DNA of 8,025 nt from a virus (taxonomy: Duplodnaviria; Heunggongvirae; Uroviricota; Caudoviricetes): the IMG/VR virus record IMGVR_UViG_2737471853_000003, positions 1 to 8,025 of that record; one strand, written 5' to 3'. A program made the translations under genes and the position numbers. Shown piece after piece: positions 1 to 3,231 of this stretch (position 1 is its first letter; the number at the start of each line of letters is the position of its first letter). Under the pieces are notes generated by a model. It saw only the letters and a program-made list of their open reading frames with translations, was not told the origin of the DNA and made no database searches.

Positions 1-186
1 TCTATTCAGTTTTCTGTGCGAGGCGTTCTGTATAACAGTGACGGTGAATATGACGAGGACGGAAATATGATAAAGGAGCCGACCCTAAAGGACGGTTATC
101 ACATTGATGTTATCTATGGCCTCATACCTGAAGCTGCGCAGAAATTTATCATCAATCCATCAACACCTGAATACGTACTGGCGTAG
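1..186 (+). CDS. 3' end of an unrecognised protein-coding gene (C-terminal 61 codons, frame 1, stop TAG 184-186)
   Basis: Frame 1 is open from position 1 to TAG at 184-186, reading ...SIQFSVRGVLYNSDGEYDEDGNMIKEPTLKDGYHIDVIYGLIPEAAQKFIINPSTPEYVLA. It is absent from the ORF track because it has no start in the window. Composition is protein-like and it is co-oriented with the next ORF. I do not recognise the product. Confidence 0.35.
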   Translation, partial: SIQFSVRGVLYNSDGEYDEDGNMIKEPTLKDGYHIDVIYGLIPEAAQKFIINPSTPEYVLA

Positions 187-196
187 GGGGGGGCAC

Positions 197-433
197 ATGG
201 CAACAGAAAGAATGATCATAGGCGCTGAACCAGTTCAAATAACGGATGGTACGAATAGCGCACTGATATCTGTTTTAGACCCGGCATCAATCAGTTTTGC
301 TGAGTCTGAAAACATTCCAGATACAGCAACAGGCGATTTTTTACGGGATAAAATGACCGTCCATCCTCCACTGAAAATTTGGGTTTGGAACTCTACCAGG
401 AAACCAATTCCAATTGCAGTAACAAGGTGGTAG
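197..433 (+). CDS. small hypothetical protein (78 aa), cos-proximal ORF of unknown function
   Basis: ATG at 197 sits 3 nt after a G8 run (186-193) that can act as a Shine-Dalgarno sequence; the ORF runs to TAG 431-433. The track's longer 104..433 version starts at TTG and adds a basic, low-complexity N-terminus, which I consider less likely. No recognisable motif. A competing antisense ORF (235..510) overlaps it. Confidence 0.4.
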   Translation: MATERMIIGAEPVQITDGTNSALISVLDPASISFAESENIPDTATGDFLRDKMTVHPPLKIWVWNSTRKPIPIAVTRW

Positions 434-564
434 TTCTGCAAAACAAAAAGCAATACATCTGAGCTTAAAAAGCAGCCGATGAATGGATTACAGACACGGG
501 CCAATGCCATTGCCGTCCAGGTGGCATTATCTTGAAGGGAATAACTTGCAATTGATAATCATTA

Positions 565-780
565 TCTTTTCGGGTCCTTTCCGGCGATCCGCCCTGTTAC
601 GGGGCGGCGACCTCGCAGATTATCGCTATTTATGAAAATTTTCTGGTTTATGCCATTTCCGTTCTTCTTCTTGTTTTCTCATTGTTTTTGTTGAAAACAT
701 CCTCTCTCCAGAAAGGAAATGCTAATCATGGAAAACGGAAGTTAACCGTTGATTGTTTCCTTTCTCTGTTTTGTGCCAGG
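565..780 (+). promoter_or_regulatory. cos: cos region: cosQ-like element (~571-584), cosN (~592-613), cosB with terminase-binding R3 (~651-667), A/T-rich IHF-like I1 (~675-700), R2 (~709-722), R1 (~752-768)
   Basis: Window 551-601 (attgataatcattatcttttcgggtcctttccggcgatccgccctgttacg) closely matches the lambda right end as I remember it, and 602 onward (gggcggcgacctcgc..tcgctatttatgaaaatttt..) matches the lambda left end. tgccatttccgttcttc resembles R3, and gaaaggaaa (711-719) and tttcctttc (758-766) are inverted copies resembling R2 and R1. Spacing from cosN to the Nu1 start (187 nt) is almost the same as in lambda. Confidence 0.8.
602..613 (+). other. cosN: 12-nt cohesive-end sequence GGGCGGCGACCT (cosN nick-to-nick segment)
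   Basis: Exact GGGCGGCGACCT at 602-613, preceded by GTTACG, reproducing the lambda cos junction. Because the junction is intact within the window, the DNA is in a joined (prophage or circular/concatemeric) state rather than a packaged linear end. Confidence 0.85.
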
Positions 781-788
781 AGTGAGCC

Positions 789-1334
789 ATGGAGGTTAAC
801 AAAAAACGCTTATCCGAAATTTTCGGGGTGAGCGTCCGAACGATTCAGAACTGGCAGGAACAAGGTATGCCGGTTGCCCGCGGTGGTGGCAAGGGTAATG
901 AGGTTCTCTTTGAATCTGCTGCCGCAATCGAATGGTACAGTGCGCGCGATGCAGCCATAGAAAATGAAAAGTTGCGGAAGGAAGTTGAAGATCTCCGCAT
1001 TGCTTCTGAGTCCGATCTTCAACCTGGCACGATTGAATATGAGCGACACCGACTTACGCGAGCTCAGGCTGACGCTCAGGAATTAAAAAATGCAAAAGAG
1101 TCCGCTGAAGTGGTGGAGACCGCATTCTGCACGTTCGTGCTGTCGCGGGTAGCCGGAGAAATTGCCAGTATTCTCGATGGAATACCTCTGTCGGTTCAGC
1201 GGCGCTTCCCGGAGCTGGAGAACCGACATATTGATTTCCTCAAGAAGGACATCATTAAGGCCATGAACAAAGCAGCTGCGCTGGATGAAATGATACCGGG
1301 GTTGCTGAGTGAATATATCGAACAGTCAGGTTAA
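789..1334 (+). CDS. nu1: terminase small subunit (lambda gpNu1 homolog), 181 aa
   Basis: Translation MEVNKKRLSEIFGVSVRTIQNWQEQGMPVARGGGKGNEVL... is near-identical in length and sequence to lambda Nu1 as recalled, including the N-terminal winged-HTH region. GGAG lies upstream of the ATG and the gene sits immediately downstream of cosB. Confidence 0.95.
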   Translation: MEVNKKRLSEIFGVSVRTIQNWQEQGMPVARGGGKGNEVLFESAAAIEWYSARDAAIENEKLRKEVEDLRIASESDLQPGTIEYERHRLTRAQADAQELKNAKESAEVVETAFCTFVLSRVAGEIASILDGIPLSVQRRFPELENRHIDFLKKDIIKAMNKAAALDEMIPGLLSEYIEQSG

Positions 1335-3231
1335 GGGGCTGCAGCACTCTGCGCGGGCGGGGCTACGTTCGCTTTACCGGCCAGAACCGCAAACAGCGGT
1401 TGAATGGGCAGATGAGAATTACTATCTCCCGAAAGAGTCTGCCTACCAGGAAGGGCGCTGGGAAACACTGCCCTTTCAGCGTGCAATTATGAATGCGATG
1501 GGCAATGACTATATCCGCGAAGTGAATGTCGTTAAATCTGCTCGTGTCGGCTACTCAAAAATGTTGCTCGGCGTTTACGCATATTTCATCCAGCATAAAC
1601 AGCGTAACTCCCTAATATGGTTGCCAACCGACGGTGACGCTGAAAACTTCATGAAGTCTCATGTCGAACCGACCATTCGTGATATTCCGACGCTGTTGGC
1701 GCTTGCTCCTTGGTACGGCAAAAAACACCGGGACAATACGCTTAGCATGAAGCGTTTCTCAAATGGTCGTGGTTTCTGGTGCCTGGGCGGTAAGGCTGCA
1801 AAAAACTACCGTGAAAAATCCGTTGATGTGGCTGGCTACGACGAGCTTGCCGCTTTCGATGATGACATCGAGAAAGAAGGTTCTCCCACCTTTCTGGGAG
1901 ATAAGCGTATTGAGGGTTCTGTATGGCCAAAATCCATTCGCGGCTCTACACCGAAAGTCAAAGGTACGTGCCAGATAGAAAGGGCTGCTAAGGAGTCAGA
2001 ACATTTTCTTCGGTTCCATGTTCCATGCCCACACTGCGGGGAAGAGCAGTATCTGAAATTTGGCGATGAAGAGACACCATTTGGCTTTAAATGGTCTCCG
2101 GGAGAACCTTCCAGCGTTTACTACCTCTGTGAACACAATGCCTGTGTGATTAAACAACAAGAGCTGGATTTCCTTGAGGCTAGGTATATTTGTGATGAAA
2201 CAGGTATCTGGACGCGAGACGGCCTTCACTGGTTTGCTTCATCCGGTACTGAAATTGAACCTCCTGACAGCGTTACATTCCACATCTGGACCGCTTACAG
2301 CCCGTTCACAACTTGGGTGCAGATCGTCAAGGACTGGATAAAAACAAAAGGTGATACGGGTAAGCGCAAAACCTTCGTTAACACGACCTTGGGCGAAACG
2401 TGGGAACCGAAAATAGGCGAACGACCCGATGCTGAAGTTTTAGCGGAGCGCAAAGAGCACTTTGAAGCGTCTGTGCCGGAGCGAGTGGCATATCTAACAG
2501 CGGGTATTGACTCCCAGCTTGACCGTTACGAAATGCGTGTATGGGGATGGGGACCGGGAGAGGAAAGCTGGCTTATCGACAAAATCATCGTTATGGGTCG
2601 TCATGATGATGAGTCGACTCTCGCTCGAGTGGATGAGGCGATCAACAGGACATATAAGCGCCAGAACGGTCTCGAAATGGTTATATCCCGCACTTGCTGG
2701 GATATTGGCGGCATTGATCCCACCATCGTCTACAACCGCTCAAAAAAACATGGTCTGTTTCGTGTGATCCCTATAAAGGGTGCGTCGGTTTATGGAAAGC
2801 CGGTGGCGAACATGCCACGCAAGCGTAACAAGAGTGGCGTTTACCTCACTGAGGTAGGAACAGACACCGCAAAAGAGCAGATTTATAACCGTTTCACGCT
2901 GGTGGCGCAAAGAGACGAGCCGCTGGCGGGAGCGGTTCATTTCCCGAATAACCCAGAAATCTACGATCTAACCGAGGCCCAACAACTAACTGCTGAAGAG
3001 CAGGTGGAAAAATGGGTAGACGGAAAGAAAAAGATCGTCTGGGACAGCAAAAAACGACGAAATGAGGCGCTCGATTGCTTTGTTTATGCACTGGCGGCGC
3101 TTCGTATCAGCATATCCCGCTGGCAGCTAAATCTTGATTCACTTCTGGCCAGCCTGCTGGAGGAAGAAGGCAGCCGTAACAATAACAAGACCCTGGCGGA
3201 TTACGCGCGGGCATTATCTGGAGAGGAATAA
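1309..3231 (+). CDS. A: terminase large subunit (lambda gpA homolog), 640 aa, GTG start overlapping the nu1 3' end
   Basis: Translation [65 protein letters not shown]... is colinear with lambda gpA (641 aa) over its full length. The start is GTG at 1309, inside the last codons of nu1, the same arrangement as in lambda. Confidence 0.95.

What the first reader, a model, noticed from the sequence alone, without database searches (positions are those of the whole stretch)
1..600. Cos-proximal region upstream of the packaging module diverges from lambda and carries unrecognised ORFs
From about 550 onward the sequence follows lambda's right end, cos and head genes closely. Upstream of about 550 I cannot match it to what I recall of lambda. 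It holds a gene 3' end (1-186) and a 78-aa ORF (197-433) with no motif I recognise. In lambdoid phages the segment between the lysis genes and cos is a known site for accessory 'moron' genes, so this is where non-structural cargo would be expected. I cannot assign a function from sequence alone.
Basis: partly seen in the sequence, partly recalled or inferred. Interest (0 to 1): 0.5.

Follow-up and report, generated by a model that had tools for sequence, protein, structure and literature searches.

The report
Spike-fibre partner genes beside phage cos
The stretch just upstream of this prophage's DNA-packaging site holds two real, conserved small phage genes that travel with a sugar-binding "spike fibre" gene, so it is most likely part of an optional virion appendage cassette rather than bacterial-fitness cargo; their exact roles are untested.

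Summary
Lambda-like sequence starts at about 553, with cosQ at 572-578 and cosN at 602-613. Nothing upstream of 553 matches lambda. Bases 1-186 are the last 61 codons of a 94-aa gene, the homologue of HK639 gp75. Bases 197-433 are a genuine 78-aa gene, the homologue of gp76 (dN/dS about 0.2-0.4). The minus-strand ORF that RefSeq annotates here is not conserved.

Neither protein has a known function; they fall in PHROG 18574 and PHROG 4772. The 78-aa protein is confidently predicted to be a minimal cupin (jelly-roll) without metal-binding residues. The 94-aa protein has no structural relative.

In related phages both genes follow, often with overlapping stop and start codons, a 310-360-aa protein. 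That protein carries the RcGTA "head spike fibre" domain and is homologous to the unexplained appendage of the phage Sf11 distal tail protein. gp75-like genes also follow spike-fibre genes in cyanophages and distant bacteria. The cupin gene almost always lies just upstream of the small terminase gene.

There are no own-promoter or terminator signals and no defence-system match. The cassette is rare: 4 of 5,426 E. coli genomes.

Best reading: the tail end of a late-operon accessory spike-fibre cassette. The moron interpretation is only partly supported.

The parts
1..186 (+). 3' end (61 codons plus TAG) of a 94-aa gene. It is the homologue of HK639 gp75 and belongs to PHROG 18574. The protein is small, acidic and alpha/beta, and is a conserved downstream partner of spike-fibre-domain proteins.
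186..193 (+). Poly-G tract of 8 G, whose first G belongs to the TAG stop codon. It occupies the Shine-Dalgarno position of the next gene, and its length varies between relatives.
   Evidence: Sequence. A relative has a canonical AAGGAG at the same place. Run length is 6-11 G across 11 related sequences. Two public contigs start immediately after the tract.
197..433 (+). 78-aa gene, the homologue of HK639 gp76, in PHROG 4772. It is a minimal cupin / double-stranded beta-helix protein with no metal-binding motif.
235..510 (-). 91-aa ORF annotated by RefSeq/PGAP in the near-identical E. coli prophages (WP_040092035.1). Rejected as a gene.
   Evidence: Annotated in L001. No minus-strand ORF of 40 aa or more at the homologous place in HK639. 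The substitution pattern fits the plus frame. The only family match is a sub-threshold hit to TMEM138.
434..552 (.). Non-coding spacer unique to this lineage. It contains a weak hairpin (about 503-529; the terminator-like hit is at 511-526).
   Evidence: No lambda or HK639 similarity. Fold z-score -0.43, so no significant structure. No meaningful Rfam match. The terminator-like site is not above shuffled expectation.
553..601 (+). Lambda-type right end of the mature chromosome, including the cosQ heptamer GGGTCCT at 572-578.
   Evidence: Alignment to lambda 48454-48502. Start of the lambda hits. Position of the heptamer. Its identity as cosQ rests on my knowledge of lambda coordinates 48473-48479.
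602..613 (+). cosN, the 12-base cohesive end GGGCGGCGACCT, identical to lambda's.
   Evidence: Single exact match, with 0 expected by chance. Base 1 of phi80 aligns here.
789..3231 (+). Context only: the Nu1 (789-1334) and A (1309-3231) terminase genes, followed by lambda-type head genes.
   Evidence: ORFs. Pfam labels on the identical contig L005. Annotation of L001.

Best explanation
Bases 1-433 are the last one and two-thirds genes of a three-gene accessory 'spike-fibre' cassette, equivalent to HK639 gp74-gp75-gp76. The cassette sits at the distal end of the late operon, just before cos.

The first gene lies upstream of the window. It encodes a 310-360-aa lectin-like protein with conserved ends and a hypervariable middle.

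The likely mechanism, step by step:
1. Shown from sequence: all three genes are co-oriented, tightly packed or overlapping, and lack their own promoter or terminator signals.
2. Inferred: they are transcribed from the Q-dependent late promoter, together with the lysis and head genes.
3. Inferred from homology to the RcGTA head-spike fibre and the Sf11 distal-tail-protein appendage: the gp74-like protein is a virion-surface protein that binds host surface polysaccharide.
4. Inferred from conserved gene linkage across phyla: the 94-aa acidic protein (window 1-186) is a dedicated partner of that fibre domain, either an assembly factor or a bound subunit. Its invariant C-terminal peptide could be the docking element.
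5. Inferred from fold, linkage and position: the 78-aa mini-cupin (197-433) is a non-enzymatic jelly-roll oligomerisation or docking module. It either links the fibre to the particle or caps it.

The cupin's N-terminal 26 residues are co-inherited with gp75. Its C-terminal two-thirds is swapped or diverged between lineages.
For: The genes are real:
- Purifying selection on 197-433.
- Full-length homologues of both genes in HK639, E. coli prophages and metagenomes.

Linkage to the gp74-like gene:
- It precedes the two small genes in HK639, L001, L006, L010, L086 and L090-L099.
- In L100, L101, L103, L107, L109, L114 and L088 the gp74-like gene runs directly into the cupin gene, with 4-nt overlaps in L101, L103 and L114.
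- Viral contigs L090 and L091, whose cupin is 100% identical to the window's, keep the gp74-like (340-343 aa) and gp75-like (92-94 aa) genes as open reading frames directly upstream.

Nature of gp74:
- NCBIfam NF048003 GTA_spike_fiber, E 4.6e-12 to 3e-23.
- Residues 59-354 match residues 166-455 of Sf11 gp17 (PDB 9occ_C), E 5e-14. That region is the surface appendage of the distal tail protein (PMC12724387).
- The RcGTA head-spike fibre binds capsular polysaccharide (PMC7296036, PMC10218006).
- The middle is hypervariable between conserved ends.

gp75-like genes lie directly downstream of NF048003 genes in cyanophages S-TIM54 and S-WAM2 and in 8 non-enteric bacterial loci.

Other neighbours of the cupin are also fibre-type or decoration-type proteins:
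- an Sf6 tail-needle-knob plus collagen-like protein;
- a Caudo_TAP protein;
- a protein matching the phi29 head-fibre C-terminus;
- a 147-aa protein related to an Ig-domain structural protein.

No own promoter or terminator. No defence-system match.
Against: - No experiment or proteome places gp74, gp75 or gp76 in a virion.
- The 'virion structural protein' label on the cyanophage fibre is only an annotation.
- The cassette sits among genuinely non-structural cargo in some prophages: KilA-N, Rha and a Clp-fold protease.
- In L010 and L094 it is followed by glycosyltransferase (O-antigen-modification-type) genes instead of terminase.
- The gp74 homologue is frameshifted in ECCRA-119, so the cassette is dispensable for that prophage.
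- The cupin and gp75 have no homologue of known function.
- The promoter and terminator scans are crude consensus scans.
Confidence: 0.6

Rival explanations
1. The ORFs are non-structural accessory cargo, a moron in the broad sense. They would act inside or on the host cell, for example in superinfection exclusion, anti-defence or surface modification, and not as part of the particle.
For: - The slot is variable, and in relatives it holds clearly non-structural genes such as KilA-N, Rha and a Clp-fold protease.
- The cassette is rare: 4 of 5,426 E. coli genomes.
- It can sit next to glycosyltransferase genes typical of lysogenic conversion.
- Both small proteins are uncharacterised.
Against: - No promoter or terminator of their own.
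- Same strand and tight packing with the late genes.
- Obligate linkage to a protein whose only characterised homologues are virion surface appendages.
- No signal peptide is evident by eye in either small protein.
- No PADLOC match.
Confidence: 0.2
2. The 78-aa cupin is a DNA-packaging accessory factor, analogous in position to the HNH protein next to the HK97 terminase. Its linkage to the fibre gene would be incidental.
For: The cupin gene lies zero to three genes upstream of the small terminase subunit, or of cos-Nu1, in nearly every locus examined. This holds across at least four unrelated terminase types.
Against: - Stop and start codons overlap with the gp74-like gene, not with the terminase gene.
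- In L010 and L094 the gene is not followed by terminase.
- There is no nuclease or DNA-binding motif.
- The protein is acidic, pI 5.1.
- It occurs with both cos and headful packagers.
Confidence: 0.07
3. The real gene is the minus-strand 91-aa ORF (235-510), as annotated by PGAP, and ORF 197-433 is spurious.
For: RefSeq annotates it in ECCRA-119 as WP_040092035.1. It has a hydrophobic stretch with a weak, sub-threshold TMEM138 match.
Against: - It is not open in HK639.
- The substitution pattern and deep family conservation fit the plus frame.
- The plus-frame protein folds confidently, pLDDT 94.9.
Confidence: 0.02

Closest known systems
RcGTA head spike: Rcc01079 base plus Rcc01080 fibre (PDB 6TB9; PMC7296036)
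   Same: - The upstream gp74-like protein carries the same NF048003 spike-fibre domain.
- The fibre gene is adjacent to a gene for a roughly 80-aa, all-beta jelly-roll protein: 84 aa in RcGTA and 78 aa here.
- The genes are located beside head and packaging genes.
   Different: - No sequence or profile similarity between the cupin family and the Rcc01079 family.
- The gene order is reversed.
- An extra 94-aa partner is present.
- Virion location is untested.
C-terminal appendage of the Shigella phage Sf11 distal tail protein gp17 (PDB 9OCC; PMC12724387)
   Same: About 290 residues are homologous to gp74, including the conserved C-terminal DWGxxYI motif (E 5e-14). The appendage is exposed on the virion surface, and the authors state its function is unknown.
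   Different: In Sf11 the module is fused to a Dit ring protein. Here it is free-standing and followed by two small partner genes. tblastn of the phage collection found relatives of those partners only in HK639 and, for gp75, in three cyanophage records, not in Sf11.
Tail fibre plus downstream assembly chaperone (lambda Stf/Tfa, Caudo_TAP family)
   Same: A small acidic protein is encoded immediately downstream of a receptor-binding-type gene, with overlapping stop and start codons, and the linkage is conserved across hosts.
   Different: No Pfam Caudo_TAP match. The gp75 fold has no relative. In L007 the cupin occurs beside a true Caudo_TAP gene, so it is not a substitute for one.
Lambdoid morons between lysis genes and cos (for example lambda bor)
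   Same: The chromosomal slot is the same, and presence is variable among otherwise similar prophages.
   Different: bor is on the opposite strand and is expressed in the lysogen from its own signals (my own knowledge of lambda). These genes are co-oriented with the late operon and lack such signals.
Phage HK639 gp75 and gp76 (ADO67758, ADO67759); PHROG 18574 and 4772
   Same: Direct homologues. The gp75 3' end is 98.4% identical in DNA, and gp76 is 64% identical in protein.
   Different: HK639 is reported to be a headful packager with an unrelated terminase. The similarity ends inside the cupin gene, at about window 303.

Membership tests
Cupin / double-stranded beta-helix fold (78-aa protein) | Small beta-barrel of two antiparallel sheets (jelly-roll topology) | tested here: met
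Cupin superfamily (metal-dependent enzymes) | Conserved His/Glu metal-binding motifs and a match to Pfam cupin models | tested here: not met
   The only invariant or near-invariant residues are W62, T16, G18 and P41, with no conserved His or Glu. No Pfam or NCBIfam match.
RcGTA spike base protein family (NF048002, Rcc01079) | Sequence or profile match to the family | tested here: not met
   None of the 30 family members matched NF048002, even at E up to 10. hhalign probability 0.1-0.3%. The profile found nothing in the PDB. A positive control, the Rhodobacter 88-aa ORF, matches at E 2.5e-18.
RcGTA spike base protein family (NF048002, Rcc01079) | Pentamer seated on capsid pentons that docks the N-terminus of the fibre | not testable with these tools
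   This needs multimer prediction or cryo-EM.
PHROG 4772 / PHROG 18574 (uncharacterised phage families) | Profile match | tested here: met
   E 4.8e-17 and E 2.8e-37.
Tail fibre assembly proteins (Caudo_TAP, PF02413) | Profile match to PF02413 | tested here: not met
   No Pfam match for either small protein at E up to 1. The same search settings detect a true Caudo_TAP in L007.
Moron (Hendrix/Juhala sense) | Variable presence between otherwise similar phage genomes | tested here: met
   4 genomes carry the segment, against 3,746 of 5,426 E. coli genomes that carry a lambda-type cos-Nu1 region. Different genes occupy this slot in E. coli 97.3.
Moron (Hendrix/Juhala sense) | Own promoter and terminator flanking the insert | tested here: not met
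   No promoter-like site and no plus-strand terminator across the HK639 cassette. In the window there is one weak promoter-like site and one weak hairpin, both downstream of the ORFs and not above shuffled expectation. These are consensus scans only.
Moron (Hendrix/Juhala sense) | Expression from the repressed prophage | not testable with these tools
   No transcriptome data were available.
Lambda-type cos | 12-base cohesive end GGGCGGCGACCT, with cosQ upstream and Nu1 about 190 bp downstream | tested here: met
   Exact cosN at 602-613. GGGTCCT at 572-578, in register with lambda. Nu1 starts at 789.

The most novel reading that the evidence does not exclude
Some lambdoid and other enterobacterial siphophages carry an optional, GTA-like head-vertex spike. 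An oligomer of the 78-aa mini-jelly-roll protein would sit on the capsid next to the head genes that encode it. It would dock a single lectin-like fibre (gp74-like), with the 94-aa protein as a dedicated assembly partner. The variable poly-G tract at the cupin's ribosome-binding site would make display of the appendage switchable. This would be an analogue of the RcGTA head spike that is unrelated in sequence, and it would also assign a role to the unexplained Sf11 Dit appendage domain.
Probability: 0.2. Interest if true: 0.7.

Novelty: new variant of a known kind. Interest (0 to 1): 0.42.

Why it matters
If the reading is right, the segment next to cos in some lambda-like prophages does not carry host-fitness cargo. 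It carries an exchangeable receptor-binding appendage with two previously unrecognised partner proteins.

- One partner, the gp75-like family, is linked to spike-fibre-domain genes from enterobacterial prophages to marine cyanophages and Saccharibacteria MAGs. It is therefore probably a general, undescribed component of this widespread class of phage and GTA glycan-binding fibres.
- The finding gives a testable handle on the unexplained appendage of the Sf11 distal tail protein.
- It flags a probable systematic RefSeq mis-annotation, with the wrong strand called.
- HK639 is a phage described in the literature and carries the same cassette, so the hypothesis could be tested directly.

Tried and rejected
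- Pfam, NCBIfam and PADLOC scans of both small proteins and of the minus-strand ORF gave nothing usable.
- PDB sequence searches with family profiles found no hit for the cupin and only TPR noise for gp75.
- Foldseek against viral models returned only uncharacterised small phage proteins for the cupin.
- The test for homology between the cupin and the RcGTA spike base Rcc01079 was negative at the sequence and profile level.
- Rfam and RNA folding of 434-601 showed no RNA element.
- The minus-strand ORF 235-510 was rejected.
- A lipoprotein-like N-terminus on HK639 gp74 was considered. It was dropped because homologues start about 15-30 residues later.
- A scan of viral contigs with the full 30-member alignment failed because no block was conserved enough. 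It was repeated with 8 closer members.
- Covariation of the cupin C-terminus with capsid type could not be tested, because each cupin variant is seen with only one head type.
- Papers that mention HK639 say nothing about genes 74-76.

Full report

Yes. Frame 1 of bases 1-186 is open and stops at TAG 184-186, and a 78-aa ORF runs from ATG 197 to TAG 433.

blastn against phage records shows that lambda and its relatives align only from window 553 onward, at about 78% identity. phi80 is closer, at 84%, and its first base (the start of the cohesive end) aligns to window 602.

An explicit alignment shows lambda 48454-48502 matching window 553-601. This includes GGGTCCT at 572-578, which corresponds to lambda cosQ on my knowledge of lambda coordinates. 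The 12-base cohesive end GGGCGGCGACCT occurs once, at 602-613, with none expected by chance.

Nu1 (789-1334) and A (1309-3231) follow, then the W-B-C-D-E-type head genes. Upstream of 553 nothing matches lambda.

**2. Are the ORFs genes?**

The segment 1-620 is 97.9% identical to prophages in four E. coli genomes. Bases 1-303 are 90.5% identical to the right end of the phage HK639 record. Those relatives supply the full first gene, a 94-aa protein (HK639_75). They also show the second ORF annotated as HK639_76.

Codon-level comparison of 197-433 with four homologues gives the following:
- Synonymous sites are saturated (pS 0.77-0.84), while pN is 0.21-0.37.
- dN/dS is 0.17-0.39 where it can be computed.
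- Differences are in excess at third positions.

An exhaustive profile search found 30 clusters (50% identity) of stand-alone 75-84-aa proteins with conserved motifs (PVQITDGT, ADSD..P, PP.KIW.W).

RefSeq instead annotates a 91-aa ORF on the opposite strand (235-510) in the E. coli prophages. That ORF is not open in HK639 and has no family support. I reject it.

**3. What are the proteins?**

Neither protein matches Pfam, NCBIfam or PADLOC. They fall in PHROG 18574 and PHROG 4772, both labelled 'unknown function'.

The 78-aa protein:
- It is predicted with high confidence (pLDDT 94.9) as a seven-stranded barrel.
- The family has no conserved His or Glu, so an enzymatic metal site is unlikely.
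- Many uncharacterised 77-100-aa phage proteins share the fold.

The 94-aa protein:
- It is modelled at pLDDT 85 as a small alpha/beta domain with a low-confidence C-terminal tail; the alignment shows P..P..V(L/F)A conserved at that end.

Both proteins are acidic, with pI 4.8 and 5.1.

**4. Context: a three-gene cassette**

In HK639, in metagenomic relatives and in viral contigs, the two genes are preceded by a 310-360-aa protein (HK639 gp74), whose stop codon overlaps the next start. This includes two viral contigs whose cupin is 100% identical to the window's.

What is known about gp74:
- It carries NCBIfam domain NF048003 ('GTA_spike_fiber'), at E 4.6e-12, and 3e-23 for a relative.
- Residues 59-354 are homologous to residues 166-455 of Shigella phage Sf11 gp17 (PDB 9occ_C, E 5e-14).
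- The Sf11 paper describes that region as a large extra appendage of the distal tail protein that projects from the tail and has unknown function (PMC12724387).
- The N- and C-terminal parts of gp74 homologues are conserved, and the middle is hypervariable. This is the usual pattern for receptor-binding proteins.
- In RcGTA the homologous fibre, Rcc01080, binds capsular polysaccharide. It is docked through its N-terminus into a pentamer of an 84-aa jelly-roll base protein, Rcc01079, on the capsid pentons (PMC7296036, PMC10218006).

**5. Linkage statistics**

*gp75-like genes.* I fetched 71 loci encoding relatives of Rcc01080 from the species-representative genome set and searched their ORFs with HMMs.
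- gp75-like genes lie directly downstream, on the same strand, in eight non-enteric loci. These include Malikia, Azospirillum, Xanthobacter, Methylopumilus, and Microbacteriaceae and Saccharibacteria MAGs.
- They also lie downstream in the cyanomyophages S-TIM54 and S-WAM2. There the upstream proteins carry one to four NF048003 domains.
- Rcc01079-like bases were found only in four Rhodobacter-type loci, and the cupin only in enteric ones.

*The cupin.* Of the 27 viral contigs that carry it:
- 14 have a gp74-like gene directly upstream.
- In 8 of those 14, gp75 lies between the two genes. In the other 6 it is absent, and in some of them stop and start codons overlap by 4 nt.
- 2 truncated contigs retain gp75, 2 have no upstream sequence at all, and the remaining 9 have a 143-147-aa protein upstream instead.
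- For the two examples scanned, that protein falls in PHROG 19936 (unknown function), and one also matches an Ig-domain structural protein.

Other cupin neighbours are:
- an Sf6-type tail-needle-knob plus collagen-like protein;
- a Caudo_TAP chaperone;
- a 73-aa protein matching the C-terminus of the phi29 head fibre (PF11133, E 5e-17).

The cupin is followed within zero to three genes by the small terminase subunit, or by cos-Nu1, in nearly every locus. This holds across at least four terminase types and for both cos and headful packagers. The exceptions are two contigs where glycosyltransferase genes follow, two where a minor-tail-protein gene follows (L104, L105), and one degraded locus.

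**6. Moron or late structural module?**

The slot is clearly variable. 3,746 of 5,426 complete E. coli genomes carry a lambda-type cos-Nu1 region, but only four carry bases 1-620. A prophage with a 96% identical packaging module has unrelated genes there.

However, the cassette is co-oriented with the late genes. It has no promoter-like site and no plus-strand terminator in HK639. In the window there are only weak, chance-level signals, and they lie downstream of the ORFs. The spacer 434-552 has no significant RNA structure and no meaningful Rfam match.

I therefore read the cassette as a late-operon accessory module. Its products most likely build or assemble a virion surface appendage that binds host polysaccharide. 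That the proteins are in the virion is inferred, not shown.

**7. Roles of the two small proteins (inference)**

gp75-like is linked to the spike-fibre domain across phyla and is often translationally coupled to it. This makes it a dedicated partner, either a chaperone-like assembly factor or a bound subunit. It is not a Caudo_TAP.

Within the cupin gene there is a sharp mosaic boundary near codon 27:
- The gp75 3' end is 98.4% identical in DNA between lineages.
- Cupin residues 1-26 are 92-100% identical in protein.
- Residues 27-78 are only 50-58% identical, with about 56-60% DNA identity.

This fits a two-faced adaptor, or a diversifying surface, but it does not discriminate between them.

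**8. Verdict**

The genes belong to catalogued but uncharacterised phage families, so they are not new sequences.

What appears to be new:
- recognising that they are partner genes of a spike-fibre-domain protein;
- recognising that the gp75-like partnership is phylogenetically very broad;
- recognising that the mini-cupin occupies a fixed position just upstream of the terminase genes.

Interest is moderate. The hypothesis is testable in an already described phage (HK639), but nothing here overturns current understanding.

Noticed in passing
window 186-193: The poly-G tract between the gp75-like stop codon and the cupin start codon sits where a relative has a canonical AAGGAG Shine-Dalgarno sequence. 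Its length is 6, 7, 8 or 11 G in 11 related sequences. This could be slipped-strand modulation of cupin translation, or it could be sequencing error.
   Followed up: partly
L005 1-10; L013 1-10: Two public genome assemblies examined have contigs that begin exactly after this poly-G tract (AGCACATGG, CACATGG). As a result the cupin gene is recorded as 'partial' at a contig end, and the cassette is split in the assemblies. L011 and L012 also begin at the cupin gene.
   Followed up: partly
window 235-510 (minus strand); L001 8235-8510: RefSeq/PGAP annotates a minus-strand 91-aa hypothetical protein (WP_040092035.1) and leaves both plus-strand genes unannotated in E. coli ECCRA-119. This is probably a wrong-strand call.
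   Followed up: yes
L001 6833-7902: The gp74 homologue in E. coli ECCRA-119 is split into 122-aa and 231-aa ORFs, whereas HK639 has an intact 356-aa gene. This looks like a frameshift, so the fibre gene may be decaying in that prophage while the two small genes stay intact.
   Followed up: partly
window 602-615 versus L001 8602-8615: The otherwise 98% identical E. coli prophage has GGGCGGCGTCCGCG where the window has GGGCGGCGACCTCG. That is two changes inside the 12-base cohesive end, which would alter cos end compatibility.
   Followed up: no
window about 275-303 (cupin codons about 27-36): A sharp mosaic boundary lies inside the cupin gene. Upstream sequence is shared with HK639-type phages at 90-98% identity, and downstream sequence is near saturation. 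The recombination joint between the cassette and the packaging module therefore lies within a coding sequence.
   Followed up: partly
L010 1679-4450; L094 4257-5714: In two contigs the same three-gene cassette is followed not by terminase but by a 485-aa glycosyltransferase (PHROG 1579). In L010, an unknown-function gene (PHROG 11851) and a glucosyltransferase (PHROG 854) follow it. These resemble O-antigen modification genes.
   Followed up: partly
window 553-1400: The cos/Nu1/A region is closer to phi80 (84%) and to a small group of prophages (96%) than to lambda (78%). 'Lambda-like' is a family resemblance rather than near identity.
   Followed up: yes
window 654-765: Nested inverted repeats lie in the cosB-equivalent region between cosN and Nu1 (654-665/710-721 and 710-719/756-765). 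I did not compare them with the lambda R sites or the IHF site.
   Followed up: no
L004 1768-4848; L009 2208-4866: T4-like cyanophages encode proteins with one to four tandem NF048003 spike-fibre domains, each array ending with a gp75-like gene. A 1,026-aa protein in S-TIM54 has four domains, and two adjacent proteins of 452 and 423 aa in S-WAM2 have one each. The repeated motif WG.QLE.G..PT.YIPT marks the domain ends.
   Followed up: partly
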